DNA of 63,230 nt, filler included, from Reticulomyxa filosa (Eukaryota; Protista; Foraminifera): the NCBI GenBank assembly GCA_000512085.1. It is 19 parts of 19 records of this genome, joined end to end, with 100 filler letters (N's around TTAATTAATTAA, not from the genome) between each part and the next. Parts side by side here need not be neighbours in the genome. Positions count along the whole stretch, not along the records: positions 13,025 to 18,781 come from ASPP01005866.1; 18 more parts are not named here. The stretch is one strand, 5' to 3'. Positions 5,080 to 55,100 of the stretch are shown piece after piece (within the stretch, counting starts at the first letter, position 1; the number at the start of each line of letters is the position of its first letter). The notes under the pieces are model-generated. The model was not told the origin of the DNA, ran no database searches, and worked only from the letters and a program-made list of their open reading frames with translations. The translations under genes were made by a program, and so were the position numbers.

Positions 5080-5641
5080 TTAAGATTGATAAGACAGACA
5101 TTGGACAAGAATGTCCCAACTATTCCTCTGTGTTTTGTTTTCAATTTGTTTTTGTTTATCTTGAGCATTTTCAGCACCGTCAAATGTTTCACTTTCGCCA
5201 GAGTTAGCAGCGTAAACAGGATCCCAGATCCACAAGTCTACGAAAAAAAAAAATTTTTTTTTAGTTGTGGGAAAGATGTTATATAGCAAAGAGCCTTTAT
5301 GGAATAGATAAAACATGCATATATATATATATGCATATATGTATATATATATATAATATGCATAAACTGGTCATCCATTTTTCAGTTCCGTGTAAGGGCG
5401 GCTCAGCTCGATGCAAAGTGGTGGCGTCGACATTTCCATCTTCTAAGAGATCATAGAAGAACATGATATTGCCCTTTCCCGGATGCAAGCCAAAATAGCC
5501 GCGTTCATCGAGACAAGACGAATGGGCCTCGGGGAAGCTGGTGTTGCCCCCTCCGAACGGTACTTCGTTCAGATACATCAAAAAGGTGATGAAGCGATTG
5601 TTCACATTGTCATTGAAATAGTCCACATGCGACTGTTGCAA
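5080..5641 (-). CDS. Prolyl 4-hydroxylase alpha-type 2OG-Fe(II) dioxygenase, C-terminal part
   Basis: HVD...RFITFLMYLNEV..GGNTSFP...PGKGNIMFFY...TLHRAEP...EKWMT(intron)NLWIWDP: HxD...H iron triad and the 2OG-binding Lys. Confidence 0.9.
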
Positions 5642-5811
5642 AAGTAGATTATTGTTGCTGTTGGTTATTTTTTTTTTTTTAACATTTTTTTTTTTTTTTT
5701 TTTTTTTTTTTNNNNNNNNNNNNNNNNNNNNNNNNNNNNNNNNNNNNNNNNNNNNTTAATTAATTAANNNNNNNNNNNNNNNNNNNNNNNNNNNNNNNNN
5801 NNNNNNNNNNN

Positions 5812-7271: not shown

Positions 7272-8901
7272 ATGTTTAATTTAAAAAAATTTAAAAAAAT
7301 TAAAAAAATGCAAACTCTTTTATTTATTTTTGAATACGGGGTGGCTTCAACCCCAAAGTTTGTTGATTATGGGGACGGGGGCATTACGTATACTTTTTTT
7401 TTTTGAACACAGGTTGATGCTGTTCAAAAAACAAAGTTAATTTTGTTAAAATATATATATGTATATAAATATTAGCAAACCTTTTGTACTCCTTTCGGAG
7501 ACNNNNNNNNNNNNNNNNNNNNNNNNNNNNNNNNNNNNNNNNNNNNTTAATTAATTAANNNNNNNNNNNNNNNNNNNNNNNNNNNNNNNNNNNNNNNNNN
7601 NNTTTTTTTTTTCTCCTAAATTTGATGGTGGCCAAGAAAAAAAAAACCACTCCGTTAAGATAGAAAAGAGAGATGTACTTTCAACCCAACAATTTTAACG
7701 TTTTACATTTTTTCTTTCTGTCAACCAATCAATAACTAAATTCACTTCTTTTTTTTATTTGTTCAATGTTTAATATTGCATCAGGAAAAAAAAAAAAAAC
7801 ACAATGAAATAAGACATAAATAACTTTGATGTTATATTCTTGTAGACGTCCTCACTTTTGTTTTAAATTTTTCTTCATTTTGTGTTTTCTTTTTTTCCTT
7901 GTGTTGCTAAGTTGTTTTCCCTTTTTCCTTCTTGAAGTGATTCTCTTTTTTTCTTTTTTTTTTTTTGACCGACCTGTCATTGTAAAATAAAAACTCCATA
8001 ACACTAATGTCTTTTTTTTTCTGTTTCTCCTTGGTTCTCTTATTTAGAGCAAATAAATATCTCTTTGGTGTGACTAGTGTTTCATTTTTATTATTTTTGT
8101 TTGGTTTTCGTTTTTTGCGTCACAATACGCAAAGCCGAAATATCTAGAGGAAAATTATTTTCAAAAAAAAATGGAATATTTTTGTTATATTATTGTTATT
8201 AATTTATTGTTGGTTGTTTTTGTTTTGTCAAATTCTACCTACAATTTGTATGCTAGTTTTGGTTATTTTTCTTGCACCTCCCAAGGAAAAAAAAAATTGT
8301 TTCTTTTTTTTTCTGTTATTGGGCTGTGTGGTCACAGTTTTGTTATTACGTGAAGAGTGTTCATTGAAAAAAAGATTCAGGTCTTTTTTTTATTGGTGTA
8401 TCAAATCTTAAAATGTAACTATTATAATGATGTTGTATTTCTAGTTTGACTGCCAGAGTTTACCAGAAATCATTGAATGGGTGTTGAACGACTTGACAAA
8501 CAAGCAGAGCTGTTGAAACGTGTATTGTGGTTATTTTGGCTGTATCCCTCGCAAAGTTATCGCATCCTCAGTGCCGTTTATTCCACTAATAATGCACTAG
8601 CTTCGTATATTGACAAGTTTGGGTTGACGATATCATTTTGATGTTTTTTTGTTAGAAACCAAAAGAGCATTTGGATACGAACACAGGAATATCCCAAATC
8701 AAGGGATACAAATGCTTGTTGAGCAAAAGAGGATATTTTCATAATATTTGTTTTCTTAGCTTACACGTTATTAAGAGAAAAATTCCTTCATGATCATAAT
8801 TTTCCTGGATTAACTTTCTTTCTAAAGGAAGAGTGTTTAAGTTAGAAATTTCAAAAACAAGGGATCTTTCCAGGAGAAGGGAAAAAAACTTGCAAACTAT
8901 C

Positions 8902-10082
8902 ATGACCGCCCTGCACGAAACAGAAACATTGGCCTTACCATTTTTAGATGTTACATTACCTGATAACAAAATATTTTCAAAGATTGAGCAGGCATCTAAT
9001 ATAGCAAAAGCCAATTTTTTGGTTTCATTTGAGTCGGACTTGATAATAATAAAGGAAAGGGACATACCATTTCTGGCAAGACTAGCAAAGAACTTGTCAC
9101 AAAAAGGTGAAAAGCTATCTCAGGCGAAAGTGGACACGAACAATCCAGCGACTTCCAAATCAGTGCAAGAGGCTCCAAAAAGCAGCGACCCTTTTATGCC
9201 GCCATTTGCACATGGAAGTCACGTGTGCGACTTGAATAGGACGCATCGTTTGTTATTGAATAAGTTTAACGTTGTGAGTAACCACATTGTAGTTGTGACA
9301 CAAAAATATGAGTCCCAGCACGACCCTCTTACATTGGCAGATGCGCAAGTAATGCTGGATCTTTTGAGATCAGCCGATTATCTATTGTTTTTCAACGGCG
9401 GTGTTAACAGTGGCGCCTCGCAGCCACATAAGCATATCCAAGGCATCCCAAGAGGGATCTCATCACACGAACTGCCCATTGACTTGTGTTTGTTCGATTC
9501 CAAAGGAAAGCACAGTCACCCCAATAAAATCCAAGTCAATTTTTTTGCAGAGCTTTATCCGTTTATTCATTGCAGTTATTTCTTTGGAAAAAACGCCCTT
9601 GACAATGTCAGTGGGAAGTCATTGTTGGAATTGTACTTACAAATGATTGAGCAAACAAAACTTACCATTAAACAGTCAAATGATGTCTCTGTTCAAAAAG
9701 TTATTGCCATTGGAGAAACCCATCATCATCTTTCGCTTGGAAAAAAAAAAACAACAAAACATACATACATGCACATATACATATACATACACACATGAAC
9801 ACTTTTATGTTTTCACTCGATGCAACTTCATAGTGTCTGAAAGATGACTTATTTTCGTACAATTTGTTAATGACCAGAGAATACATCCTGATTTTTCCTC
9901 GTCGACATGAGAGCTATGTCGACCAAGACACTGCTGTGGAAATATCTGTTAACTCACTGGGCTTTGCCGGAACTTTCTTTTGCAAATCAGAACAAAGTTT
10001 GCAAGTTCTAAAAAAAGTCGGTCCACTGACTGTTCTGAAGGGTGTAGGCTGTCCAATCGCTGTTGTCAAATCCGATTTGTAA
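8902..10082 (+). CDS. ATP adenylyltransferase / Ap4A phosphorylase (Apa2-like, HIT superfamily)
   Basis: DPFMPP, LLNKFNV, FFNGGVNSGASQPHKHIQ (HxHxQ). After an intron (~9700-9834) come SYNLLMTREY...PRR and VNSLGFAG. Confidence 0.92.
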
Positions 10083-13024: not shown

Positions 13025-13120
13025 TCTCTATCTCTATCTCTATCTCTATCTCTATCTCTATCTCTGTCTTTATCTCTGTCTCTGTCTTTGTCTCTATCTC
13101 TATCTCTATCTCTGTCTTTA
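13025..13120. repeat. (TCTCTA/TCTCTG)n hexamer repeat encoding (DR)n
   Basis: Tandem hexamers run to the contig end. Confidence 0.9.
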
Positions 13121-15418
13121 TTTCTGTTCCATGTGTTCAAAGATGGCTCATGACCGATCACATTGGGCTGCATAAAGTGATCATCTCTGGAGTGCAATGT
13201 GCTTACAGGTAGGTGATTGACAACTATTCTATCTAATTGTGGAGGAAGCGGATGCAAAGGCACGTTATCTCTGGACCATTGCCGGTCAGGCTCCTGAATT
13301 CCATAAGAATATGGGCGGAATTCATATGCTCGAAAATGATAAAAGCTTGGCATATTGTAACTTTGAGACAGAGACAGGGACGAAGGTGGAGGAGGCGGAG
13401 GAAGAGAGAAAGAAAGATGAAGAGGGGGCAAAGGAACAAGTGGAAGAGGTAGAGAAGTGTGAAGAGGGAACATGGCATCACTTATCGTTCTGGGTTGTTC
13501 ATACCGATTCAACTCAGGTCGTTCATCACTGTTATTTCCATTAGTCGTTCTTCTCTGTGTCTTTTTATCGTCATCCAGGGATCGATCTGGCGACCTTCTA
13601 TGCATGCGATCAGGCGTAAATCGATCCCTATGTCTATCAAAAGCATGACGTATTGGTGGTAAGGAATAACGTCGTTCTCGCATTGTATTATTTGGTGATG
13701 ATAATCTATCCGTGTGTGCTCGGCCTTTTCCATTGCGTCGATGTATTGACTCAGTTTCTTTTTTTGGTAACTTTTCGCGGTTCAACTTTTTGAGATTTTT
13801 TTTGTTGAAGCGAGAACGACCACCTCTTCTCGTTATCTTAGCTATAATTCGATCCCATTTGAGCTTGTTATTTCGAGTCGCACGTCCGCGGATACGGCCA
13901 AATCGCACATGGCCTCGATTGTTGTTGCCATAGCTTGAATTGTCTATTTCTTGATAAATGATATATCCGTTCCCAATTGGCGTATACACTAATGACAAAC
14001 GAGAAAATTTCTTTATAAACGATAACATGTCCAAAAAACCGTATTCCTTAATGTCTAATATCTCATTGAACTCTTTGTAGTACAAGTCTTCAAATGCGTC
14101 TTTTTCTATTTCTTTATACTTTTGCATCATCCTCAGCACATTCCGGTGAACTTTTCGAAATTTGTTTGATGCGAATACACTTTTGCCAAATGGATATCTC
14201 ATATTGGATGTAGGCCTTAATTTCAATTTTGATTTAACCATTGTTTTGGATTTAGATCTGGATATAGATTGGGAAGGTTTAACTCTCGATTTAGAGTTGG
14301 ATTTGGATTTCGATTTGGATCTTGATTTTGATTTTGATTTGGATTTCGATTTGGATTTTGATTTTGATTTTGATTTTGAGTTTGATCTTGATCTTGGTGT
14401 AGATTTTGGTGTTAGAACCAGATGGTAATTTGAGTTTTCAACCGATATGACCTCGCTCATAGACGGATAATGTTGATTTGCGTTGATGAAATTGATGTCT
14501 TTGGTTTCATCCGATGGATCAGAAGTGTTCGATGGTGCGGACAAAAATTGGATCCAAAATTTACGATGAAACAACTCTTGAGAACATTTGCCCTGATCGC
14601 GATTGGGGCACTGTCCATGCTCCACCCAATGTTGACACTCCACGCCGTCATGGAAGTATTTGCATTCTCGAAAATTGGTGCATTGATTGTCCTTTATCCA
14701 TTCTGGGCATTCATTGATTTCTACCTGTGGCAATATATGTATGAGCATGTATGAAAAAGACAAACTCCAGCGCGCGTTTCTTTTTTGTTTGTTTTTTTTT
14801 TTTTTTTTTTTTTTTCTATTCACAAATACATACAGGTTGAACGCCGATATGTGACAAAATCTTTTTTTCAATAGGCTTTGTTGGCGGTTGTGTAGTGGAG
14901 ATATCTTCCTTCTTGACAATAATGAAGCCATTGTCAGAACCGTCATTGGATTCCACTGCTTCACTGTTGTCATGTGTTTGATCTTCTTTTTTTAGTTTGC
15001 TTGCAGTTGTACTCGTTTTGTGCTTCTTTATTTTCAGTTGATCTTCTTGGACTATTTTTTGTGCAGCTGGTGTCATTGGTATTGAGTTGCTTTGTACATG
15101 ATCTGTTGTACTATTTCCATTTTCTATCGATTCCGTCTTGATACTATTATTCTTATGTTCGAACCCATCGTCTGTCAGTTCGCCACTTTCCGATTTTTCT
15201 CCATCCATTGCCATTTGCTTTCCTTTTTTTTTTTTTTTTTTTGTGGTCATTGCTAAGAGAATCAAAATAATTGACTTTAATGCAAAGTAAGACTCAAAAC
15301 AAATTATTAGAATGTTAAGATATGCATATATGTTTATATATAACTCAGGCCCCAAAGTCTGAGGGTCCACTTCACATTCACTTTTAATGTTTCCTTGTTC
15401 ACTTGTGTTGGCATCCAT
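13025..15418 (-). CDS. CCCH zinc finger + LOTUS/OST-HTH domain protein with SK, RG and DR low-complexity regions (3' truncated)
   Basis: Three exons from ATG 15418. Two CCCH fingers (CPEWIKDNQCTNFRECKYFH; CQHWVEHGQCPNRDQGKCSQELFH, ~14560-14715). LOTUS-type helix-turn-helix VLRMMQKY...FEDLYYKEFNEILDIKEYGFLDMLSFIKKF (~13985-14165). Confidence 0.8.
14290..14396. repeat. (GATTTT/GATTTG)n hexamer repeat encoding (SK)n
   Basis: Visible tandem hexamers inside the LOTUS gene. Confidence 0.85.
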
Positions 15419-17575
15419 TCTGTTCGTCCGAAACCATATTATGTTTTGGAGGAGCACCCATCCAAAGTCCATGCGATGTTAAGACAAGCGACAAAAGCCA
15501 CCAATGCCAACAATTGTTGTTGACGAACATCCAAATGATGAAGCCATAAATCATGACACATAAAAGTAAGGTCAGTAATTAATCCAAAAAAATTTTAAAA
15601 AAGCAAGTTCCAATTCGATATATCCCAATTCGATTGTAAAACAAAACAATCGATCCAATAGATTGTTGTATTTTGTTTGATTTGATTTTGTGTTCCGCCG
15701 TGGTGGATTGTTTGGTTGAAGTTAAAGAGGAGGAACAACGGCGTAGGAGCAAATTGTGACATTGATCCAATGTTTTCCACCAAAACAACAGACAATCAAA
15801 AAAACACAATGCAGTTCTTGTGAGTCACAGATCATAAGGCATTCCACCAATAAATGTTTGTGCTTGTTGTTATCTCCTCATTTTTTTTTTCCTCCCCTTT
15901 CGCTGAACGTAAGTAGTCGTCGGCAGACACCAATCAAATTCCATTTGACACATTCAGAACAAAAAAAAAAAAAAAAAAAATGTCCATTTTTAGCAAAATG
16001 TCCTCATAAAAAAAAACAACAATTTTGCTATCGCAAAAACGCATGTTACATACCCAACAAAAAAAAAATGTTAACCTTAGTTTTTTTTACTTCTTTGTAA
16101 TTGTAGGGAGACATTTGGAAAGTTTTTTTCCTTTCACAAAAAATTCCAAAACAAAAACATATTTATCTTGTGCACAGACCTTGAAACTATGTTTCTTAAA
16201 AAGTAATTTTTAAAAAAAGGAGAGTTTACGTGCAAAAACAACTCACATGGAATTAGAATACGAGACATTGCCCGATTTGTTATCGTTCTGATGTGTCAAA
16301 AAATCCGGTGTTGATGTCATTCAATGATAAAATTATTGCTTCTGTTTTGAAAGCGAAATCAAAAATACAGTGTTGGACAATCCAATGGTGTCTTTGTTAC
16401 AAACAGTCTTTTCAATGATACCCTTGTTTGTTCACTCTTTTCCAATCAAGCCAACCCCAATTAGTGCGTTAAAAAGCCAAGAATGTATTCCAATTTCTAA
16501 CTTTTCCAAAAGATTTTAAAAAAGGATATTATCCTATGATGACAAGCCCAAGCCAGTTTTAAAAAAAACTTACTAAGATTTGCCGTTTCTTTGTCTTTTG
16601 TTTATCAATAACCTACCGGAGTAGTGTTGCTTTTGTTTTCTAATAAATACCTCTAAAACAATTGGGACGATTTTATTTGGCAATAAACATACAGTGAAAA
16701 GGCAAATTTTTTCAATTCTAAATCCGTTGTCGACGTTACAAATTTGTTGTTTTTTTCTCCTTTTTTTGTAAGAGTGCGTTTCTCTTTTTTTTAAGTGTGT
16801 ACGATGTCGCCATGTTTGTCGAGTTCAATTTCAAACATTTTCATCTGCTGAATGTGACAACGAAAAATTCAGCAGGCAACAGAGTGAAAGTATACGTACA
16901 ACCTCAATCAGTTGTTAATATCATGTGAAGTTTCTTTTATTGTGTCATTTGACTTTACTATTTATTGTTACACCATATTACTTTACCACAACAAATGAAA
17001 AACAAGCAAAAGTAGTTAAAATTAGATTCAAAATTTGAACACTAACAAGATTCTAAAAACACTGGAAAGACAACTAAATTGCAAATGAAGTGAAATATTT
17101 GTTATCTTGTTGATATGAAAAAAAAACATTTGTTTGCAGAATATGAAATAGAATGACATTTGGGAATATTATTATGTTCTGCTGAAATTCATTAATCCCA
17201 AACATGAATAAAACCATCATATAAACCATAACGCAAATTAATATCATAAATATGAAATATGATAATTTGTTTATTTTTAATTGTAAAAATTAAAAAAAGA
17301 ATTCAATCATTTTGTTGATTGCTTCCTTTATTGTTCAAATGTAATTGTTCAATGAATTATTTGTTATTAATCTCATAAACAAACACTTGGACAGATAATA
17401 TTATATTCCTTAATTCATTTGATTCATATTTTACACTTCTAATCCAAGCTTCATGTTCTTTAAATATAATCTTCAAAATCATATACTTTGCCAACAAGGG
17501 TAAGTCACCCAGAAACGGTTTGAAGTTTGAAAGCCTCAGCTGAAAAAATTTCTGACAAATTGTTCATAATCTCAG

Positions 17576-18683
17576 ATGTCACAAGAGAAAGATGTACAAC
17601 TCCTCAATACCTATTTCAATTATGCCGAAGATCTAGAAATATTCACTCAAGGTGACTACGACAATTTAGACACACTCGCCGAAGGTGATGAAAACAAAAT
17701 GGAAGTAGATCAAAACGAACAAAAAGAAGGAAGCTTGGAGGCATTTCAAGATGAAGGTAAAGATGCTCTTGGTAAAGATGCTCTTGGTACCATAGACGAC
17801 GATAAAATTACAACAAATTACTTCAATGTGACGATTGCAAAGGATTTCGATATTATTGAATACAGTGTCACGGTACGTTTCTTTTCTTTTTGTCCGGTTG
17901 AGCCAGTTGCATTACCAAGAAAAAGGAGAAGTTGATTTTATGTTGTATTTTTGTTGCACTATTAGTTTGATCCTGATATCGCAGTAGAAAATGTAAGAAA
18001 GAGACAGATAATCTTTGAGGGGTTAGTTATACGTTGCTTTTTTTTTTTTTGGTTGAGAAAAGACTGACTCACTCTTAAAGCCGGAGGGGGGAAAAAAAGA
18101 TGCACAGAGGTGAGCATATATTTCGAACAATGCTTCTTCGTTAATACTGTAGTATTTGCAAGAAAAAAAGAAAAAAAGGACGTTGATACAAAATCGACGG
18201 ATATTGAAGTATATTCGGCAGATGGTGATTATAAGGTCACCTTACATTTGTTTTTTTTTGGGAGGGGGGGAGAGATATGAGAAACAAATCTTTTTTTTTT
18301 TTTATAAAAAAAAAAAAAGAATGGTATTAAAAGAAAATAAAAAAAGATATGTAGAAATGGATGAACACAAAAGATGCCAATTGATATGTGCAATATTATG
18401 TAGCGTGATCAAGCCATGGTATAATATCAAAGTCGATACGATCGTGGGCATTAAATCCGAAAAGACAACAAGACAAGGACACGGTCGTGAAGGAGAGGCG
18501 ATAAGTCGCAATTGCAAGGCGACTCATTTGGACTTTTTTACAAACGCAGATTTCGAGAATCGGTTGCGATTGTTCTTTCACGACGAAAGTCATCCTTTCC
18601 TTGCGGGAGCTCCCAAGGGTTGGTCTCACTCTTATAAGCAGTGGATTGAAGCTGCGCAACAGGTTGTTGTCACCATTAACCAG
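17576..18683 (+). CDS. Piwi/Argonaute family protein, N domain + linker L1 (3' truncated at contig end)
   Basis: Exons ~17576-17872, 17966-18021, 18100-~18249 and 18320-18683 give ITTNYFNVTIAKDFDIIEYSVT|FDPDIAVENVRKRQIIFEG|C...CFFVNTVVFARKK...RCQLICAILCSVIK...KGWSHSYKQWIEAAQQVVVTINQ. These blocks are collinear with Piwi motifs TNHFRL/YQYHIDYNP/FDGTILF/QFYNIIFRRLLK/PGFTTSILQYE. The exon 3/4 junction is uncertain. Confidence 0.7.
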
Positions 18684-18881
18684 GTATATAAACACATGTG
18701 CAATTTATCTATTTGTATTCTATTAACAAGTTAGAGTAAAAAAAAAAAAAAAAAACGTGAAAGGAGAAACCAAATGTTTTANNNNNNNNNNNNNNNNNNN
18801 NNNNNNNNNNNNNNNNNNNNNNNNNTTAATTAATTAANNNNNNNNNNNNNNNNNNNNNNNNNNNNNNNNNNNNNNNNNNNN

Positions 18882-23791: not shown

Positions 23792-23841
23792 TATATAAAT
23801 ATTTGTTTATATGTATTAATATATATGTGATATGTATTCAC

Positions 23842-24626
23842 CTGTCCAAATTTTAATGGTGTTATCGTAACTACCGGTAATCAACCAATCTTCGGAGGGG
23901 TGCCATATTGCACATTTGACATCTCCGGCATGTTCGCGAAGGACTGATAACACCTCGAACTCGAACGTGTTTTCGTCCATTTCCCATATCCACACGCTTT
24001 TATCACGACTGCAACTGGCCAGTAAATTTCCACTGGTATTCCAACTAAGCGATTTGATTTCACTTTTATTTCCTTCCAACATTTCTACGCATTCGAATTC
24101 GATCTCATTATTTGAGCCCAGCGATTTTCTCAATGTGTCACTTTTTTTTACTCTCTTTTTTTTTTCATTTTTTTTTATCGCCACCTTCTTCTTCTTCTTC
24201 TTCTTCTTGTTCTTCTGCTTCTTCTTCTCTTTCTTCATTGTTTGGAGATGAATCCGCCATCACCTTCCAAATTCCAATACTCCCATCGAAACATGCGCTC
24301 GCGAACATTCGATCGTTGGGATTCCACGCCACACATCTCACCGTTCGTGTGTGTGCGTCCAACACTTGCGTGCAACGATACGTGTAAGGGAAATGCACGT
24401 CTGCTTCTTGTGCTACTTTCTTCTCCTTGTCCACTTTTGAGTCTATCACTTCTTTGTATTGCTTTATCCACACTCGTATTGATTTGTCGCCTGAACAGCT
24501 GAGTAATATTTGACGAGAGGGAGACCAACACACACACCACACACGATCTTCGTGACCCTCCAGTGTATCCAAGAGAGTCAATGTCCCCAAATTTTTTTTT
24601 ACTTGCTCATTTTCTATCTCAGCCAT
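23842..24626 (-). CDS. CIAO1: Cytosolic Fe-S protein assembly WD40 protein CIAO1/Cia1 (3' truncated)
   Basis: LEGHEDRVWCVCW, HTRTVRCVAW, ASACFD, LASCSRDKSVWIWE, HAGDVKCAIWHP, SYDNTIKIW. An apparent frameshift falls in A/T homopolymers near 24165. Confidence 0.9.
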
Positions 24627-25172
24627 TTTCTTTCTTTATGTGATGTAGGGTTAAAGTACCCTTTTCTAATTTTTTTTTTTTTTCCACTAAACAACGAGAG
24701 TAGTTAAACTGTTTTTTTAAAAAATATAACACTACCAAATTTGGTAGTGTTACAAACTACACAAAACAAAGATATTTTTTGTAAAAGGGTTGACATAATG
24801 AAATACAAAATGAATGAAGCGGCGGCGATAGCAACAACTACACGTATTTGGAATTTTAAAATTTTTTTTCTAATCTAGCCTCTTTATATTAAAGATGGAA
24901 AAAGCGCATGTCTTTTGTGTTACGTGTTACTTTGGTAGAATAATATCGTCACAGCTCCATGAAAAATGAACTTTAATAGTTTGATTGCAATAACTTTTTT
25001 AAGTTTTGCTGTAATTTGTTTTATTTGTGTCAGTGCCTTTTCTTGATAGTTTCAACAGTTCTTGAGTTGACAACTTTCTTTTTTTTTTGAAAAAAGCAGT
25101 ACTCAAGGTGTCCTGTAAGAATACGTGTCCCTACTAAAAAAAAATCTTCAACATTTTCAAATTGTTTTGGAA

Positions 25173-29819: not shown

Positions 29820-30973
29820 TTAAATGGACTTGACCGATTGGTAGGTCGGATGACAATCATAAACAAGAGTTCGGTCTACGTCAGTGTGACATAAGGAGCA
29901 TTTCGTTTTATCAGAAAGGCAGTCATTGCACAACACGTGACCACACCTAATTATTTATTTACTTATTTATTTGTGTCAATCCAAAAACAAAGATTACAAA
30001 AGGGACAAATTAAAAACTTTTTTTTTTTTTTTGGAGTGTATGGTTTTTTTTTTTTTTTTATATATTTTTGTTGTTATTATTCGAAACGGCATTAATAATT
30101 GCATTATAGACTGAGATAGCATTTGACAGCCCTCACAGGAACTTTTTTTAGGATTTTGAACATCTTTTTGATGGAGTGTGTCGTTTATATCATTGGTCGA
30201 TTGAGATGGCAAGTGCAAAGAAATATTGAGGGGAAATGTGTCGGCGATCTCGCGCTCGTCGTCAGTGTCAATGTCCAAAGGCTCGTTGTCATTGCTACTT
30301 TGCACCGCTGGTGGAGACAAATGTTTTAAAAAGTGCGGTTCGTTGTCGGCTCCGGACCACAACAAAAGGTCTTTTTCCAAATGCAAAGGGTGATAATGGC
30401 TGTGCTGGTCCGCGGACTGGTAGTGGTAATCGTGAGCGGCTGTGACATGATTGTGTCCAGCCCAATACGAACAGGCATTGACATGCGACGCCTTCGCGTA
30501 TGCAACGCTGTTATCGTACAAGTTCCCATTGGCCCGATTATACGTCCCGATCCATTGTTTCGGCATGTGCGTCTCATTTCCATTGTAATGATAAGAAATG
30601 TCGACATACGATCTTACTTCAAATGGTATCCATTGTCGCATTTGTGTTTGTGTTTGTGTTTGTGATTGTGTTTGTCTTTGTCCTTCTTCATCACGCTCTT
30701 CTTCTCTTTCTCCTCCTTGCTTTTCATGATTAATACATCCTTTAGTGTTTGTATATGCTTGAAGACTCTGTTTTCCGGACACCTTTCCTGGCATGAGCTC
30801 TTGCTCTGGCACTGGTGACGGAGTGAACTTTTGTTTGTCAATTTGAAACTGAACAAACTTGTGATCAACAGGATAATGAGCACTACCGCTACTACCACCA
30901 TTATCACCACCACCGCCGACTTGTAATAAAGACTTACTAAGTCTAGCGTCATACACAATGAGTGGAGTAGCAA

Positions 30974-31018
<45 letters not shown>

Positions 31019-31630
31019 GAAAAGTATACGTATTAGATCGACGAGGGAAAGGCGAACGAATGTCAGCTTCGCCATGGGCATGAGTGCAATAAAAACCCCA
31101 TTTGCAACAGTTGCCCGACGGATTGGTGAAGTTGGTGCACATTGACGTTTTATAAATGTTGGGATGATACATTTGCTCCAATATGGTATGCGAATATGGA
31201 CATCGATCGCCATTGACGCAGCGACTCTGCGGTAGCCATTTGACACTTCCAAAAGGCTTGACCTGTGGACAGGCTTCTTCGGAATACGCGAACAATGGCC
31301 CGGTGCCGGGATTGCGGCGTCTCTCGCCTTCGTGGTGGTACAACTCACATGTCACTTTCTCCGGACAATTGCGACGGAACGGACAAGGATACACTTTGTA
31401 GCGAAATAAAAAAAAGCACATGTTTTCATTGCGTGTCGAAAACGGACTAATCCAGGTCTTCCTTGATGCGTTCTTGCAATTCAATCGCTCGTCCTGTTTC
31501 TCTGTTATATCATTCGTACTCCATTTTTGCAATGACTCCAGTTTTTGGATACTCTCGTCGTCGAACTCGTTCATGTGCAGCATTGCTGGTTGCGTTTCGC
31601 TTTGTTCTAGGTATGATTCGAGCGTGCCTA
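29820..31630 (-). CDS. Unkempt-like tandem CCCH protein with C-terminal RING finger (5' truncated)
   Basis: YKVYPCP...CELYHHEGERRRNP...YSEEACP...CVNGDRCPYSHTILEQMYHPNIYKTSMC...CKWGFYCTHAHG. A last exon not in the ORF track (29946-29820) completes CEGC...LMP|CGHVLCNDCLSDKTKCSLCH. Confidence 0.85.
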
Positions 31631-31717
31631 TTTTGTGTATGTGAATAGGGAAAGAGAAGGGGAGGGGGAAGGGCAAAGGGGTTTGTTTTCCAGTACTTAT
31701 CTATCTATTTTTTGGTC

Positions 31718-34601: not shown

Positions 34602-35480
34602 AGTCTGAGCCTAGGGACTTTTTTCCCCAAAAACTTACTTATTACTTTCGTTTTTGTTTGGTTATTTTCGTTATTTAAACTCCTTGTTTGCTAACATCTC
34701 CCAAAGGAATAATCAGTCGTAACTTCTCCTTAGCAGAGATCTTAGCAGCTCTACACAAGTTTGACAAATCACATTAAATAGTACATGGCACGCATAAAAA
34801 CAAAAAAAACTGTATATTGTTCTTGCTAACATTATGCACAAAAGTAATAATAAAATATTAATTGAATAAAGAACCAACATGTTTGACTTACAAATTAAAA
34901 AAAAAGTATATACATTTAACTTGTAGTGTGAGTCAGTAAGTTATACTTCACGATTTGTGCTAGTATATCGAATTAATGTCTTTATTATGATTTAGCTAAA
35001 TCAATATCAATTTTTATTAAGAAACAAATTACTTTCAAGTAATCTAAACAAAAGCAAAAAATAGTTAATTTGTATGCTAAATTTTATCTATCACTTCGAA
35101 TGTATTCTGTTCGTTATTTTGCTTCTATTTTTCTGTTATTCTCTTATTCAATTTTTGCTGTCGCTTTCATTGCAGTCACGAAAACTAACAAATGTTGATT
35201 TATTTAATTGATTTTTGTTTTCAACATGAAACTACACACGTGTTGACTTAATGGTCAATTTTTTCTTTAATTTTACAGTGTAGTTCTTGGATAGCGTTAC
35301 TACAGCTTACAGATTTGCATCGAGTAGGACGTTTAACAAGCAAAAATTTCGAAAGATTTTGCTCTGTATAAAGTTACAAACTTATTTTTAAAAAAATATC
35401 ACTGTTTTTTTTTTGGACCTTTTTGGTTTTTTCCCACAGATAAAATTAGCTTTACCCCTTCCAGAGTATAGCAAGTTGGG

Positions 35481-36430
35481 ATGGGGAATTTTTGTATTGG
35501 TAGCACTTCTCTTCCCGATCAAATTCATGAACGAATGGCGAGTAGGCATATCCAGGCCTACATTAAAGACCACGAAAAACAGCAGGAACGAGAAAAATGG
35601 TTGTTGCTATTGGGTACAGGAAGTAGTGGCAAGTCAACCCTCTTCAAAGAGTTGCGTTTGATTGACGGACATCGCTTTCAAGACCGGGAAAAGATCAAGC
35701 ACAAGCAAATTATTCGAAAGAATATGGTATCAGGAATGATTGCCTTGTTGCAAAAGTCTTTAGTTTTGCCGACATTAGTTGAACCATACACTTTTTTTGT
35801 TGGCAGGTCGAACAAAAACATTAGGACTGATTTCCAACCTTTTCAAAAAAAAAAAAAAAAAAAACCAGAAATTGTACGAAGGGAACCCCCAAAAATATGA
35901 GGACTGCAGAGTGGACGTTGAAGACAAAGAGATCATGACCAACATTGATGTGGTTCTGAGTTTTTCCAAGGAAGACTTCGACAATGAAGACGAGATTGAC
36001 GAAGTAAGACTGGAGAAACTGGGAAACGCTATTGAATTTTTGTGGACGTTGTACCCAATCAAACATACTTTGCGCCAAAGAACTGGGTACACAGATGTTT
36101 CTATTTTGAACGCGAGGACTGGAAAAGGGGAGGGGAGGGAATAGAGGAGGAGGGGAGAGGAGATAAAGGAAAGTGAAAAGGTAAAAAAAAAAAAAAAAAA
36201 AAGAAAAGAATTTCTCTCTCTTTTAATATCATCAAACATACGAAAGGGGGAAGATCGGGCTGCATGTATTTATAGGCATCGCTACTTTCCGGACAACTTG
36301 GAGCACTTTTTGCAAAAGGCGAAACAAATAATGGTACAAGATTACATGCCGGACAATGACGACATATTGAGGACGAGAAACGAAACCAATGGAATAGAAG
36401 AATTAGTGAGTGTCAACAACAACAAATATA
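35481..36430 (+). CDS. Heterotrimeric G-protein alpha subunit (3' truncated)
   Basis: MGNFC lipidation motif, LLLLGTGSSGKSTLFK P-loop, helical domain, and YMPDNDDILRTRNETNGIEE switch I. Two introns. Confidence 0.93.
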
Positions 36431-44979: not shown

Positions 44980-46421
44980 CTATGAAAACGTACAACGATG
45001 ATGTAAAAATTTCTCAAATAAAAGTATAAATTGTTCAGCCTCTATCCCGTTTGCCCTCGCATTTTGCAAGGAGCATTCTTTAAGAAGTTCCAAAAAGAAA
45101 TTAATTTTGTTTATTTTCTGGCTGTTATTCTGACAAGTGATTTTTGATTGGTTGTCACGAAATACGGAGGAAAGCAGCTTGTTTTTGGAAATGAAGCATA
45201 TTTTTAAAAAGCGATTCCATTGATTGTAAATATCTTTGTTATCGGTTTCAAACTTACGTAAAAAAAAAGTTTAGAGTCACGCTTTGGAACCAATCGAATG
45301 ACAGTCGATTGGACTTTGGGCATTGGTTGAAAGTGCTCTGGGCCGACATCGAACAGCCTCTCCACAAAGCAATGGCTTTGTGTATTAACACTGATTTGGG
45401 AATAGTGTTTGCTTCCAGGTTTGCAAATCAATCTGTCCACAAATTCCCTTTGAAACATTAGCACCGCAGATCTGCATTTGTTGTCCAGATCGCAACACAG
45501 AGCCCCGATTCACTCCAAACAAAACACGTACACACTCCAAACAAACATAGCACTCGTCTCAACTTGAACTGAGGATATTGCAGCAACTTTACCATCAATG
45601 GAGTAGATATGCTGTACGGGACATTCGCAAGCACATGATCGACCGCAGGCACGTTAATGTCCAATATACTTGCATTTATGAAATGTACTTTATCTTGGAG
45701 TCTGTTAAAATTCCATTTTGATACACAAATATAAATACATATACAAACATATATATACATATATGTATATATATGTTTGTATATGTATATAATGATGAGA
45801 CAACCATTAACTTTGTATTGGCCAATTTTTTTTGTAATACACTTATTAAAACGGAGTCGATATCGACGGCATACACCTTGATTTCGTTAGTGATCAAGAC
45901 AATGTCCATTTTAACTATTTGTTCTTTTTTTAAAAGAAAAAAAAAAGTAAAGACGCAACTTTGTGACACTCTGGGGCAAGCTTCAAAGTTAAATTGCCTG
46001 AACCGCAACCAATTTCTAATACTGTGTCTGTTGGTTGCAATTGTGCCTACGTGCAATTTTTTTTTTTTAAAAAAAAAAAAAAAGGTGTCTGTTCTTCATC
46101 GAAAAAAAATTATACGTTTTTCTTTGCATGTTTACAATTCCCAAAACTTGTTGCACAATGTTTGTCAATATTTGATTGGATACTAGCACATGCTGGCTTT
46201 TGGTTTTTTCTTTTTTTCATTTTTTTTTTGGAAAAACAGCAATGCAGCACATGTTCATTGTTTTGTTAACCAGCTTATGCACTCAAATGTTTCCAACCTA
46301 ACAGTCCCTCGGGCAGTACCAAGTCGTGCTGTTTTGTCTGAAGAGGATTAGAAAATCTTCTTAATCCTATCCAACTCGTTGAGACAAGTGGTCGTGGAAA
46401 CAATCTTTTCAACCGAAACAT
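44980..46421 (-). CDS. DIM1: Dim1/KsgA rRNA adenine N6-dimethyltransferase with a probable mitochondrial presequence
   Basis: Multi-exon gene: QHVLVSNQIL, DTVLEIGCGSGNLT, VYAVDID, LANVPYSIS, SAVLMFQREFVDRL, FQPMPKVQSTVIRL, ICFISKNK...FEKFLHHRCTFS*. Confidence 0.85.
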
Positions 46422-47523: not shown

Positions 47524-47679
47524 GTTTAAAAGTTTTTTTTTAAAAAAAAAAAAAAAAANNNNNNNNNNNNNNNNNNNNNNNNNNNNNNNNNNNNNNNNNN
47601 NNTTAATTAATTAANNNNNNNNNNNNNNNNNNNNNNNNNNNNNNNNNNNNNNNNNNNNTTTTTTTTTTGTTTGAATGAA

Positions 47680-49586
47680 AGTAATACCTCATATATTTAA
47701 GTTGCTTGAACGAAACAGCCAATTGCTTTAACGTAGGATTTTGCTGCACTTTTTCGGGGTTAAACATGGCAATCGAAATGCAAGGTACGTCAAACATTTG
47801 ATCCAGGTATCGCTTTGCCATTTTGCAAACTTTGGCAGGCCGGCAATCCAACTCGTGCAAAACGCGGTGAGGGATTATGGCTCTCTCCAACATGTGACAT
47901 TCGTCGCAATGAAGCAAACCTGTGAAACGACAGTAGTGGTACTTGGCTCGTCGAAAGAAATTCAACGTCAACGAACAACTGCAAGTCGCACATTGAAAAT
48001 TTTGACTTTGAACAATCTCTCATTATCTCTGGGAGGCAAAGGAGTTACTCGATACTCGATTTCAAAGCCTGCATTTCCCACAAAAGGATGAATTTTTTTT
48101 TTATTTTCGAGATTTTTATATATATAAAAAAAAAAAAAATGCTCAGCCCCCTTTTCAAAAGCTTACCAGAAATCCATGTAATTTTGTCCTGGCCCGTAGC
48201 GTTGAGCTGGTTACAGACAAGCGGTGGTAATTTGGAAAGTTCGTGACTGGGAGCGGGAGCAGTGGGAACGCTGTCGCTTATGGAGATATTGCGATTGGAT
48301 CTTGTCGGTCTGTTCTGTTCAATCTTGGATTTACATTGCAGTATGTTTTCCATATTTGTATTTATATTTGTATTTATATCTGTATTTGCATTTGCATTTG
48401 CATTTGCAGTTGAAGTTGTAAGTGTAGGAGCATCAGACCCGTTGATGTGTGCATCAGGAATGATAGAAGCAGAGTTGGTATGAGTGAGGTCCTCGCGTGT
48501 AGGGTGGACACGTTATCTGCAGAGACGTTCACGTCGCCGGGATGTTTGGAGGAACAACTGTCGTTGTTGGACGCGTCGTCAGCAGGCAAAGGAGAGAGGG
48601 ATTGTACCTTTTGCACGACCTGATCTTGGTAGCATGTCTCTTCCGCTATGTCTGTCTGTGTCATAGTCATCGTCGTAGTAGTAGTAGTAGTAGTAGTAGT
48701 GATAATAGAAGTAGTAATGGTCGTACTTGCTGTTGTGTCAACACTTTGTTCGTCAGATTCCACTTTCTCTTTCTCTTCTTCTTTTTCTTTCTCTTTTTTT
48801 TTCTTTTTCTTTTTCTTGTTCTTGCTCTTGTTCTTTTTCTTCTTTTTTTCGGTCTTTCGTTGTGCTTGTGATCATCATTTAAACATAGCGCGCTACAGCC
48901 ATTGGCAGCCTCGTTCACATTCGTGTGCGACGATGCACTTGCTTTTTGGTCGCACGTTTTGTCATTATTCGTGTCACCCTTTGCATTCTCTTCCCTTTTT
49001 TTTTTTTTCAGTTGTATGTTTTAATTAAAGGTGCATTGATAAAAAAACGTCTTTGGCAAAGTACTTTAAAAAAAAAAAAAAAAAAGAAGGAAACGAGAGT
49101 TAACAGTCTATTATCATTATGTTGTTGTTGTTGTTGTTGTTATTATTATTATTATTATCACCTTTTGCACATTGGCAAGGGAGAGAAAGGAGGCAAGCAA
49201 AAATAATTTGCAAAAAAAAAACATACGTAGTGACATTGGTCTGCGGAAGTATTGCGTGTTGGACAGAAAGAGAAGGATCAAGGTTTGGGTCACTGTGATT
49301 TGATTTGGATTGATGTTTCAATTTCTTTTTGATTTTTTTTTTGTTGCATTGGTATTATTGTTATTGTTATTGTTATTATTATTATTATTATTATTACTGT
49401 GATTGTCACCATGGCTGGTATCACTTTTGGTTGGTCCCTCTTTTATCTTTTTTTTCAATTTCTTTTTTTTCACAGTTTTGATTGGTTCTACTTTCTCTTC
49501 GTTCCCAGCAGCACCTTCTTCCTCTTCTTCGTTTTCATTTGCCATCTTGCTTCCATCACCGTCACTTGCATTGCTCATTTTTTTGA

Positions 49587-49620
<34 letters not shown>

Positions 49621-50150
49621 GTTATTATGATTGTCATTTCATGGCAATCGTCATTACACGAATTGACATCATGACAATAAATACTTGCTTGTCATTGGCT
49701 TCATGGAAAGGTTTGTTTTGCATTGCCCAATGGGAGTCGAACTGCGGTACATGATGTTCATCCACGACGATGATATCGGCTCGATTGAGCAAAGGGTCGC
49801 TGAGTGACAGTTCAAAGTGCACTTGTTGTTCAAACAAATGGCTTTGCTCTTGCAACTGCTCAATCAGTATCACGCGATGATTGTGATGTGACAAGATCCC
49901 ATAGTCTTCGTAAAAGGTTTTCACAACATCCATGTTCGATGTCAACAGTTCCAAATATCGCAATAGCATTTTGCTTCGTAAGCTTTGTCGGAGAAACGCC
50001 CTCCCTTTCCCAATCTCCTGCAACGTGTCCATTCCATTTATTATCGCAATGTCCTCCTGCAATTTCTCTATCCATTTGTTCCCGGCTGGTTCCTTGCCTT
50101 TCTTTAGTTCCTTCGCCGACTCACATACAAACGTCCACAACGTCGTAGTT
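47680..50150 (-). CDS. RUN domain + Rubicon-homology (DUF4206) protein, Rubicon/PLEKHM1-like (both ends truncated)
   Basis: RUN: WTFV...GKGRAFLRQSL...LLRYLELL...FYEDYGIL. RH: QCATC...YCRFTGLLHCDECHMLERAIIPHRVLHELDCRPAKVCKMA. Long low-complexity linker. Confidence 0.85.
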
Positions 50151-50587
50151 TTTCGGAGTTTATTTGCTAGTTTTTCATTTTATTCATTCATTCGTTCATT
50201 TTTTTTTTTTTTTTTTTTTTTTTTTTGTGGGTGTTTTTTTTTNNNNNNNNNNNNNNNNNNNNNNNNNNNNNNNNNNNNNNNNNNNNTTAATTAATTAANN
50301 NNNNNNNNNNNNNNNNNNNNNNNNNNNNNNNNNNNNNNNNNNGTGTTACTACAAAAAAAAATCCTTGAAAATGCTGCATCTAAAAAGACCCCATATATCA
50401 ATCCTACATTCAATGAGCACACTTTTGGCGAGAGGTGCGGATGGCCTTTTCAGTCAGCATATCAGCCACTTACGACAACCTACCAGGGCGTCAAGTGGAA
50501 TTTATGTAACTTGATTAGCATTTTGTGCAACTTCAAGCGGTAAATCGGGTAGTGATGTTGTGGATCGGGAGGCTTGAGTGGTGGGCG

Positions 50588-52108: not shown

Positions 52109-55100
52109 CTATGACTCCGTACGACTGACCCAATATGCATTCAAGTTATCATGTTTTTTGAAATTGACAAGGATGTCTTTACATTTTGCTTTAGTTTGTG
52201 GACAAGCTTTGAGCCAAGCCAAACGCAAAGTGATAGAAAAGTGTATGTTAGTTGATTAATATATATGTATATGTACCTAAAATGGAATTTGGAAGACATT
52301 TTCCTTCCAATTGAAGTGCATGATTTAAAGCATTTCCAAAGATATGAAATCTTAAACAAGAACGACCTAGAATACAGCCTAACACATGCCCATGTGCAAT
52401 ACCAACCCGAATATTGATATTAACAGGATTTGATACAATTTCAGTTTGAAATATGTTCTGAATTCGGTAATCTTTCAATTGGATATGCATGTTTACCACA
52501 TTCAGAGCAAATTTGATCACACGTTCAGCGCATCCCCCAAATGATACACAAATATATGCATCCCTTTATACAAACATGTGCGATTTAATTCAAAAAAAGT
52601 AATCTAATAAAAAAAAAAAAAAAGCTAACCCAATTGTTTCAATCTTTTCAACATTGAATTGAACAGCAAACTGATCATATCTTGAATAGAAATAATGCAA
52701 CAATGATACGATGAATGAAGGATCTAATGTAGATGACAGTTCAGTAAAGCCTATGAGATCGGACTGAAAGACAGTGGCAGACCGGAATCGTCGTTTTAGA
52801 AAACTTTTGTTTCGCTCGAACATTGACTTGTACAACAATTGCTTAGCAACAAATAATGGCAACAACACCGACATTGACTGTTCTCTATCCTTTCTCGACT
52901 TTTCAATTGCCTCATCATACACAATATTTCTTCGACTTTCTTTTTCCTGCTTATATCCAACTATCATACTTACCAAGAATACTAATATGTCAATGGCAAA
53001 AGTAGAAATGTCCACTATACGTCATATAATTTATTTGTTTATATTTAAATACACATAAATAAATATATATTAGTATCAACTGGAATTATAAATGATACAA
53101 TTATTATAAATAAAAGCAGCCAAAATAATGGAGGAAAATGATACTTCGAAAAAGCGGAAAGGGAAAACGCTGAAAGATAATATATAAAAAATGTTAGCGA
53201 TGAATCTACCGAACAAGCGATTGGTCTTGGCGGTGACATAGTTGATACCTAATACGTGGAGCCAAAAGAAGACATACACGACAATCATGCGCCGATAAAA
53301 CAGTACGCGTTGCTGTCGGCCGTGACAGAATATGCGAAATGCAAATTTGCAAGAGAAGAACAAACGACACAACCGCTTCCATTAGCAACAGAACTACTAA
53401 TATCGGTTGGATGCGACCAAATGGAGGTGGTGTCCCTTTGTAACTGATGTCCTCATACTCGTTGTTGTCATGTGGCATGTGTTTCCTTATCGTTATTACA
53501 TTCAGCAACAGCAACATGTTGAATGTCCACAGCGATATTTGCAATTGACTGTAATTTCGCAAATGCATGTTTATTAATTTCATTTGATATATCTCCTCCA
53601 GCTTGAATTCTTTGCTTATTTTTTTAAAGAAAAGTTAATAACGATTTTTTTTAAAAAAAAAAAGAAAAGCAAATTTAAAGACTTGATTTGTGAATTTGAA
53701 AATTGACGGTGAGCGGTGACGTCATTTGATAAAATTGATAATTTAGATCTGGGCTTGACCCTAACAAAAAGTTTAACCAACATTGTACAAAACGTACTAT
53801 CTATGTAAGAGCACTTTTGCTTCGGAAAACGCAGCGTGAATGCGCTGGCATGAGTATCTTCAGAATTTAGAAACTGATAAAAGTTCATTTCTAATAAATT
53901 CGCATTATTCGTTGTTTTATGTGTGATATGTCTTTTTATCCATGATGACGTTGACGATGTGTTTTCATTATCTTCATCTTTTTATTCAAAAGAAAAAAAC
54001 GTTATCAAAAGGCATTGTTTGTTCGTGTTTATAAGTATATACATATGCGTATAGTATTATAACTTAGTCCACGCACAATGTATGTGCAAATATTTCCTTT
54101 CCCTTTCATTGGAATATCGCCTCGAATAAGCCAATCAAATGATTCCGAAACTCCGCCAAAATCTGACAAACACAAAAGTAAATATATACTTTTTTTTTAT
54201 TTATTTATTTGATAGAAGAATGTATTTATTGTGATGTACAAACTATATGTTTGCTTTGTGGCTTGTATGCATCCTTCCAATCCAGTCGTACACACACGAG
54301 ACGCAGTGTTGACAGTATCACCGAAAATTCGAAAGAATTTTCGTGTTGTTCCAATGATTGTCCCCATCACTGGACCAGTGTGAATTCCCATTGTCAATTC
54401 ACTTTGCACATGTGATTTCGCATTAACTTTGTTCAAGATTCGACGAAATCTTAATCCCAAACGAAGTACTTTTTTGTTGTTGCATTCACTTGTTTTTTTT
54501 TTTCAATGTAAAAAAAATCAAATAGTTAAAATATAGTTCAAAACTTGCTTCAGCATGGTTGAAAGACTTGTCTGACGACATTATACCACCACATACAAGA
54601 TACGTATTTCCAACATGCTCAATTTTGACTACATCAAATTCCCATTGTTCAATTTCTTTTATTTTTTTACATCAGCGTGTCAAAGTACAAGACATAAAGT
54701 TGACATGCAAGATTTTTAAAAAAAGGTGGGAAAAAAAAAGTTCATCTTAGTTGAACTTAAAGAAAAAAAAGTATTCTTAACCTTTATCAAAGTTTATGAC
54801 AAGTTGATGCAAAACTTCCACAAAAGAGGAGTTGTCCTTAATTTTTTCCATAGTAACTTTGTCGTAAAAGGTGAAATAAACAAAACCAATGGTCACGTCT
54901 CTTGTGTAAATAGGAACATCCCCTCTAAGTAAAATTTGTTCTGTAACTGGAGCTGGCATTAAGCTGTTCATAATACGGGCATGTTCTTTTCTTTCCACAT
55001 GCAATCGTGCACGATTAGATACATCGTCAATCATTGTGCACAATTGTTGTTTGGTAGTAAAATAAAAGCTATTTGTCATTGACACAATTCCGCAATTGAA

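What the first reader, a model, noticed from the sequence alone, without database searches (positions are those of the whole stretch)
13025..18781. Head-to-head Piwi-like gene and CCCH-LOTUS gene: candidate protist piRNA/nuage-like module
Seen: on one uninterrupted contig, a minus-strand CCCH+LOTUS gene (ATG 15418) and a plus-strand gene (ATG 17576) diverge across ~2.15 kb. The second splices into a Piwi/Argonaute N+L1 region that the ORF track hides. Established: LOTUS/OST-HTH proteins (Tejas/TDRD5, Tapas/TDRD7, Oskar, MARF1) act with Piwi proteins and Vasa-type helicases in animal germ granules. Inference: this may be a co-regulated small-RNA silencing pair in a rhizarian genome rich in decayed gene copies. 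I do not know of such a linkage being described. The adjacency could be chance.
Basis: partly seen in the sequence, partly recalled or inferred. Interest (0 to 1): 0.78.

Follow-up and report, generated by a model that had tools for sequence, protein, structure and literature searches.

The report
Argonaute fragment beside CCCH-LOTUS gene
On one short contig, the 5' part of a divergent Argonaute-family (probably Piwi-like) gene points away from a gene for a CCCH zinc-finger protein with a likely LOTUS domain; both look like ordinary RNA-handling genes, and nothing found here shows that they work together, so the pairing is most likely chance.

Summary
The layout is real: one gap-free 5,757-bp contig, two divergent intron-containing genes, ATGs 2,157 bp apart, both cut by contig ends. 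Spliced exons 1-3 of the plus gene match an Argonaute N domain (30-32 bits on a profile of 37 Piwi proteins; 0 of 2,000 shuffles reach it). The claimed L1 is not supported, PAZ/MID/PIWI are not on the contig, and the clade is unresolved (leans Piwi; AU p=0.39 for joining Ago). The minus gene has one canonical and one variant CCCH finger, a sub-threshold OST-HTH match (E 0.001) predicted as a winged helix, and SK and RD repeats. CCCH+LOTUS is a known architecture (plant AtC3H18) that needs no Piwi. Two features that tie LOTUS proteins to Piwi in animal nuage are not seen: the Argonaute's 79-residue N-terminus has no arginine, and no Vasa-binding helix or Tudor domain is evident. No relative, RNA run or synteny evidence could be obtained. 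Verdict: two new members of known families; the module is an untested hypothesis (about 15%).

The parts
13025..18781 (.). Single contig between N44-TTAATTAATTAA-N44 spacers; both genes run off its ends
13027..14724 (-). Large last sequenced exon of the CCCH-LOTUS gene (566 aa, open to the contig end, no stop codon seen)
14650..14709 (-). CCCH finger 1, canonical C-x8-C-x5-C-x3-H
   Evidence: sequence; Pfam zf-CCCH_DUS3L E 0.0043, below cut-off
14566..14637 (-). CCCH-like finger 2, variant C-x8-C-x7-C-x5-H
   Evidence: zf-CCCH E 0.33
14206..14403 (-). Ser/Lys/Arg dipeptide repeat region
   Evidence: (RSRP, E 0.012, compositional)
13969..14160 (-). Likely OST-HTH/LOTUS domain, apparently of the minimal type
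   Evidence: Pfam E 0.001, 19.3 bits, cut-off 23.8; Atlas 0.87; winged-helix model pLDDT 66
13027..13119 (-). RD/KD dipeptide repeat (hexamer microsatellite) at which the contig breaks
14725..14833 (-). Predicted intron, GTATGT...CACAG, 109 nt, phase 0 on both sides
14834..15472 (-). 5' coding region of the CCCH-LOTUS gene (acidic, low complexity); start codon and first intron uncertain
15419..17575 (.). Divergent intergenic region, 2,157 bp; no Rfam match at gathering score; CCAAT cluster 15501-16494; possible 5' UTR intron 17500-17575
17576..17872 (+). Argonaute-family gene exon 1: 79-residue acidic, arginine-free N-terminus, then the first strands of the N domain
   Evidence: Pfam ArgoN E 0.015-0.027
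17873..17965 (+). Intron 1, 93 nt, GT...AG; used by all 15 top-scoring splice paths
17966..18021 (+). Exon 2 (N domain), 3' end approximate
18100..18249 (+). Exon 3 (N domain), both ends approximate
18347..18683 (+). Exon 4, open and GC-richer than the introns; 5' end uncertain; no family match, L1 identity unsupported; donor at 18684
18764..18781 (+). Possible 6-codon stub of exon 5 after an 80-nt intron, at the contig end
   Evidence: inference from splice signals

Best explanation
Two divergent genes share one short contig: the 5' part of an Argonaute-family gene (probably Piwi-like) and a CCCH zinc-finger gene with a likely minimal LOTUS domain, and they are most likely chance neighbours with separate jobs. 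The plus gene would encode a small-RNA-guided silencing protein whose PAZ, MID and PIWI domains are predicted to lie beyond the contig end (N domain shown; rest inferred from family architecture). The minus gene would encode an RNA-binding scaffold: CCCH fingers and LOTUS bind mRNA, and the SK, R-rich and RD repeats promote assembly into RNP granules, as in plant AtC3H18 (motifs shown; function inferred from PMC9335048 and PMC7498356). Each is probably transcribed from its own promoter within the 2.16-kb gap.
For: N domain: 30-32 bits spliced against 11-13 for exon 1, collinear over three exons, beyond 0 of 2,000 shuffles; hhalign 82.5% to the Piwi alignment, 7.2% to the Ago alignment; the 7 best of 51 pairwise references are Piwi. 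Full-length Piwi references also score below the ArgoN cut-off (17-27 bits in 4 of 4), so the weak Pfam hit is expected. LOTUS: Pfam E 0.001, Atlas top rows OST-HTH, three helices plus a hairpin, MARF1/TDRD5/TDRD7/Oskar LOTUS chains among the Z 5.0-5.5 ties. Against an animal-type link: 0 Arg in the 79-residue N-terminus, whereas 22 of 32 reference Piwis with a 40+ residue N-terminus have 3 or more RG/GR; polar, Gly/Asn-rich sequence after the wing; eLOTUS reported only in animals; CCCH-OST-HTH fusions already known. A second CCCH gene lies in the same window. The only 2 reference Piwi loci whose upstream DNA was examined have long divergent ORFs without a LOTUS match.
Against: For this exact pair chance adjacency is rare per genome: 0.0003-0.015 under assumed family sizes, so the coincidence is not trivial. 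Both gene types have life-cycle roles in protists: PIWI is up-regulated at Zerfall in Allogromia and a LOTUS gene determines maleness in Plasmodium. The gap holds a strand-biased CCAAT cluster. 'Chance' rests on absence of evidence: no relatives, RNA or synteny were available. The LOTUS match is below the Pfam cut-off, and the Argonaute is known from its N domain only.
Confidence: 0.7

Rival explanations
1. The two genes are a co-regulated small-RNA granule module: a shared upstream region switches both on at one life-cycle stage, and the CCCH-LOTUS protein nucleates a granule, through RNA and its repeats rather than through Vasa or Tudor contacts, that concentrates the Piwi-like protein.
For: Head-to-head on one contig with no detected gene or structured RNA between; low per-genome chance for this exact pair; Piwi lean; PIWI up-regulated at Zerfall in a foraminiferan; 11 CCAAT on one strand in 1 kb, the highest count in the window; the OST-HTH paper proposes protist nuage-like RNPs.
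Against: ATGs 2,157 bp apart, five times the median intergenic distance tabulated for the one foraminiferan draft genome (426 bp; a yardstick only); no Arg in the N-terminus; no eLOTUS helix or Tudor domain evident; with 50-200 silencing-related genes, 0.06-1.0 adjacent pairs per genome are expected by chance (assumed sizes), and the scan covers very many windows; the CCAAT motif was picked after looking.
Confidence: 0.15
2. The plus gene is a decayed copy, or carries an Argonaute-like N domain on a protein that is not a full Argonaute, so there is no working silencing effector here.
For: Similarity stops at the end of the N domain; exon 4 matches nothing. The stop-free joins of exons 3 and 4 need weak donors, and a reading with a one-base shift at the better-looking intron scores about as well (29.0-32.6 against 29.4-33.5 bits). 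Long end branch, 22% best identity.
Against: Stop-free GT-AG paths exist through all four exons with introns of 70-97 nt; exon 4 is an open, GC-richer stretch ending in a donor; homopolymer-rich introns make assembly slips plausible; the L1-sized position holds a G-W-x-x-S-Y stretch that aligns weakly with the Ago L1 (not significant).
Confidence: 0.12
3. The winged helix in the minus gene is not a LOTUS domain, and the protein is an SR-like nuclear RNA-processing factor, which removes the premise of the pairing.
For: OST-HTH is below its cut-off; no PDB sequence match to a LOTUS chain; the best structural matches are other winged helices (Nse1, Z 8.1-8.4); SK/SR and RD repeats are typical of splicing factors (recalled).
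Against: OST-HTH is the best Pfam family and spans model positions 5-68 of 71; 10 of the 10 best Atlas hits with a family share its family or clan; CCCH next to OST-HTH is a known combination.
Confidence: 0.08

Closest known systems
Eukaryotic Argonaute family, PIWI clade (ciliate and animal Piwi proteins; references L003-L122, two checked against PDB)
   Same: N-domain motifs in order over exons 1-3; best pairwise hits and best profile are Piwi.
   Different: Only the N domain is recognisable; about 50 extra residues follow it and L1 is not detected; acidic, arginine-free N-terminus; 22% best identity; clade not resolved.
Plant CCCH-LOTUS(-RRM) proteins such as AtC3H18 (PMC9335048, passages read)
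   Same: CCCH finger followed by LOTUS and low-complexity regions; in AtC3H18 the LOTUS domain targets mRNP granules.
   Different: Two fingers, SK and RD repeats, no RRM detected in the sequenced part; no sequence relative found.
Animal eLOTUS nuage proteins Tejas/TDRD5, Tapas/TDRD7, Oskar (PMC5458760, passages read)
   Same: Likely LOTUS winged helix with disordered regions.
   Different: No Tudor domain in the sequenced part, no evident C-terminal Vasa-binding helix, CCCH fingers present; in that paper LOTUS binds Vasa, and the link to Piwi is indirect.
Plasmodium md1 (PMC7616090, passages read)
   Same: Protist LOTUS protein with a proposed germ-granule-like role.
   Different: Plasmodium falciparum has lost RNAi (PMC13547706, passage read), so this LOTUS role runs without Piwi; different domain partners.

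Membership tests
Argonaute family | N domain | tested here: met
   30-32 bits on a 37-protein Piwi N-L1 profile, 13-19 on a 14-protein Ago profile; 0 of 2,000 shuffles; Pfam ArgoN only 15-16 bits on unspliced pieces
Argonaute family | L1 linker after the N domain | tested here: inconclusive
   No score on the Piwi L1 profile; -1.3 bits on the Ago L1 profile, 262 of 1,000 shuffles as high; a divergent L1 is not excluded
Argonaute family | PAZ, MID and PIWI domains, catalytic tetrad | not testable with these tools
   Contig ends at 18781; no genome held; no other Piwi-like stretch among 2,027 six-frame segments of the window (next best 4.2 bits)
PIWI clade | Groups with PIWI to the exclusion of AGO | tested here: inconclusive
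   Outside the 100/100 Ago clade but unplaced; AU p 0.386 for query plus Ago (16 of 37 Piwi and 6 of 14 Ago rows). 36.2 bits on the Piwi N profile lies within the range of true Agos (29.9-54.6) and below all left-out Piwis (47.9-130.2). No protist Ago was in the reference set.
Animal-type Piwi-Tudor nuage link | Arginine-rich (RG/RA) Piwi N-terminus bound by Tudor domains | tested here: not met
   0 Arg in 79 residues before the N domain, upstream frame closed with or without the 5' intron; feature as described in PMC2848206
OST-HTH/LOTUS (PF12872) | Profile score above the curated cut-off | tested here: inconclusive
   19.3 bits against 23.8, E 0.001, near full model length; Atlas 0.87, a lead only
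OST-HTH/LOTUS (PF12872) | Winged helix-turn-helix fold | tested here: met
   Single-sequence model pLDDT 66, three main helices plus hairpin; matches are winged helices, LOTUS chains tied at Z 5.0-5.5; the fold is not specific to LOTUS
eLOTUS (Vasa-binding) subclass | C-terminal extension helix after the wing | tested here: inconclusive
   Sequence after the wing is polar and Gly/Asn-rich; the model ends 9 residues after the wing at pLDDT 38; the helix is disordered without Vasa, so absence cannot be shown
TDRD5/TDRD7-like proteins | Tudor domain in the same protein | tested here: inconclusive
   None in the two sequenced parts, but the C-terminus is cut by the contig end
CCCH zinc-finger proteins | C-x7/8-C-x5-C-x3-H motif | tested here: met
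   One canonical and one variant motif; Pfam hits below cut-off
Co-regulated head-to-head gene pair | Divergent orientation with no gene between | tested here: met
   the short intergenic ORFs were inspected by eye, not scanned against Pfam
Co-regulated head-to-head gene pair | Close transcription starts, co-expression, conserved linkage | not testable with these tools
   No RNA holder listed; no relatives found; no eukaryotic genome collection

The most novel reading that the evidence does not exclude
A foraminiferan-like protist keeps a Piwi-like Argonaute and a CCCH-LOTUS granule scaffold under one shared promoter: a Tudor- and Vasa-independent, RNA-nucleated nuage-like module for life-cycle genome control, which would push the LOTUS-Piwi partnership back beyond animals.
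Probability: 0.15. Interest if true: 0.75.

Novelty: new member of a known kind. Interest (0 to 1): 0.27.

Why it matters
RNAi in Rhizaria is barely described: the one study read found only AGO-clade proteins in Plasmodiophora and no sign of piRNAs (PMC13547706), and a preprint reports PIWI up-regulated during nuclear breakdown in Allogromia. A divergent, arginine-free Argonaute and a protist CCCH-LOTUS gene are useful additions to that catalogue. Only if the linkage proved conserved and co-expressed would it bear on whether LOTUS-Piwi granules predate animals.

Tried and rejected
Exon 4 found no relative: word search 0 of 25 candidates, HMMER over 1.84 billion representatives 0 at E 0.001, PDB nothing meaningful, Atlas best 0.76, model pLDDT 43.5 and not searched. 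The CCCH-LOTUS region gave 5 low-complexity hits with 5% coverage or less. Reading the frame of exons 1-3 unspliced added nothing to exon 1. Viral contigs: two matches in phage genes, off-frame chance hits, and none for the Ago motif. No LOTUS-like match in 3,722 segments of 121 reference loci (best E 1.5; single-sequence search, mostly transcripts, weak test). Foldseek had no match at E 0.001; the wide structural search never ran. The SNORD24 match was rejected (28.1 bits against 41, no D box). A complex prediction was not run: LOTUS is reported to bind Vasa or RNA, not Piwi, and the Argonaute is mostly missing. Earlier findings: none in 3 look-ups. Paper searches listed no description of a Piwi-LOTUS gene linkage (listings only; the library lacks most subscription papers).
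Full report
Setting. The window is 19 short contigs joined by N44-TTAATTAATTAA-N44 spacers, so only 13025-18781 (5,757 bp, 35% GC) is true context. No genome is held. Contig sizes, GC and 70-110 nt introns resemble a fragmented foraminiferan draft, but the organism was not established; the figures tabulated for Reticulomyxa filosa in PMC13746701 (39,965 genes, introns 87 bp, median intergenic distance 426 bp; passages read) serve only as a yardstick.

Plus gene, what is shown. ATG 17576 is the first in-frame start with or without a possible 5' intron at 17500-17575. Exon 1 alone gives ArgoN at E 0.015-0.027, 15-16 bits; 4 of 4 full-length Piwi references also stay under that family's cut-off. 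One Ago locus gave 120 Ago proteins, of which 88 could be cut and 14 were kept as non-redundant, animals and two plants only. Spliced models score 30-32 bits on the Piwi profile against 11-13 for exon 1, aligning in order through exons 1-3. Of 20,853 stop-free splice paths, 93 reach 25 bits; the 786 that use intron 17873-17965 peak at 31.9, the rest at 24.0. No whole shuffle (max 8.6) and no shuffle of the part after exon 1 (max 25.5) reached 30.2, of 2,000 each. The Argonaute N domain is therefore real.

Plus gene, what is not shown. Shuffling exon 4 leaves the score unchanged (mean 29.7; 556 of 2,000 as high), L1-only profiles give nothing, and exon 4 has no relative anywhere searched. A stretch at its end aligns loosely with the Ago L1 in hhalign but without significance. 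The exon 3-4 junction is ambiguous: stop-free joins use weak donors and a one-base-shift reading scores alike. PAZ, MID and PIWI would lie past the contig end; nothing else in the window resembles them.

Clade. For Piwi: 30-32 against 13-19 bits, the 7 best of 51 pairwise hits, hhalign 82.5% against 7.2%, and a position outside the Ago clade. Against calling it: the Piwi profile is the broader one, true Agos score 29.9-54.6 on it and left-out Piwis 47.9-130.2, with the query at 36.2 (the query took part in that alignment, so the figure may be a little high); the AU test does not reject query plus Ago (p 0.386; 23 of 52 rows); no protist Ago was available, although AGO-clade proteins are known in Rhizaria (PMC13547706, passages and supplement search). 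I put Piwi-like at about two in three.

Minus gene. An exon open from 14724 to the contig end (566 aa) follows a phase-consistent 109-nt intron. It holds a canonical C-x8-C-x5-C-x3-H finger and a variant, an SK/SR repeat, an OST-HTH match over model positions 5-68 of 71 at E 0.001, 19.3 bits, cut-off 23.8, then R-rich and P-rich tracts and an RD repeat where the contig breaks. The Atlas ranks OST-HTH clusters first (0.87, a lead). A single-sequence model (pLDDT 66) is a winged helix; Foldseek finds only winged helices, none at E 0.001, and in the second look MARF1, TDRD5, TDRD7 and Oskar LOTUS chains tie at Z 5.0-5.5 below Nse1 at 8.1-8.4. LOTUS is likely (about 85-90%), not proven. The start is uncertain: the open frame has ATGs at 15472, 15418 and 15250, and the donor at 15344 is out of phase with the 15418 frame for every acceptor found.

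Does the pair form a module? In animals the LOTUS domain binds Vasa through a C-terminal helix that MARF1-type domains lack and that non-animal domains appear to lack (PMC5458760, passages; PMC7498356, abstract and section 22), while Tudor domains bind methylated arginines on Piwi (PMC2848206, passages). Here the Argonaute N-terminus has no arginine in 79 residues, against 3 or more RG/GR in 22 of 32 references (3 have none; some reference N-termini may include untranslated sequence); no Tudor domain is seen in the sequenced parts, and the sequence after the wing is polar. CCCH-OST-HTH fusions were described in 2010; AtC3H18 has CCCH, LOTUS and RRM and enters mRNP granules (PMC9335048, passages); Plasmodium uses a LOTUS gene for male fate (PMC7616090, passages) in a genus cited as lacking RNAi. 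So the architecture does not imply Piwi. On the other side, Allogromia up-regulates PIWI at Zerfall (bioRxiv 10.64898/2026.10.21.760831, passages; 'LOTUS' does not occur in its main text, supplements unseen), so a stage-specific pair is biologically plausible.

Chance. With assumed family sizes (2-10 Argonautes, 3-30 LOTUS genes, 39,965 genes) the exact pair is adjacent with probability 0.0003-0.015 per genome; but any two of 50-200 silencing-related genes give 0.06-1.0 adjacent pairs per genome, and such a pair would have been flagged equally. These are arithmetic on assumptions, not measurements. An Unkempt-like CCCH gene in the same window shows such RNA-binding genes are not scarce. The gap is 2,157 bp; no Rfam family reaches its threshold. 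It holds 11 CCAAT on the plus strand within 1 kb, none on the minus strand there (0 of 1,000 local shuffles, 4 of 1,000 for the whole gap; motif chosen after looking); this lies nearer the LOTUS gene and is one-directional, so it does not by itself indicate a shared promoter. Synteny and co-expression could not be tested.

Verdict. Observation partly confirmed; interpretation partly supported. Two new, divergent members of known families; functional linkage about 15%. Paper searches (listings only) showed no report of such a linkage.

Noticed in passing
window 15501-16494: 11 CCAAT on the + strand and none on the - strand in 1 kb, the highest 1-kb count in the window; possible promoter or 5' UTR element upstream of the CCCH-LOTUS gene; motif chosen after looking.
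   Followed up: partly
window 17080-17138 (+): Weak SNORD24 match, 28.1 bits against a gathering score of 41, without a D box; probably chance in AT-rich DNA.
   Followed up: yes
window 17500-17575 (+) and 15420 (-): Both candidate start codons sit right after a CAG acceptor-like site, suggesting 5' UTR introns in both genes.
   Followed up: partly
window 29997-31700 (-): Unkempt-like CCCH zinc-finger gene, Pfam zf-CCCH_UNK E 9e-12.
   Followed up: no
window 62040-63230: Last contig has 66% GC and a Cas3-like C-terminal match (E 1.6e-7): likely bacterial DNA in the assembly.
   Followed up: no
window 8800-9795 (+): Ap4A phosphorylase N-terminal domain, E 7e-36, in a long uninterrupted frame.
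   Followed up: no
window 23819-24635, 35472-35897, 45461-45886, 47660-50179, 52593-53021, 60351-60707, 5300-5710: Ordinary eukaryotic genes on other contigs: WD40 repeat, G-alpha, rRNA adenine dimethylase, RUN plus Rubicon-homology, nucleotide cyclase, aldo-keto reductase, 2OG-Fe(II) oxygenase.
   Followed up: no
L013 847-2070 (-) and L070 4056-6164 (-): Two intronless Piwi loci from metagenomes each have a long divergent ORF upstream without a LOTUS match; they look like an aminotransferase and an adducin (recalled, not tested).
   Followed up: partly
L123 1-4630: A contig filed under a bacterial MAG holds an intron-containing Argonaute whose nearest named relatives are coral proteins: eukaryotic contamination of that MAG.
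   Followed up: partly
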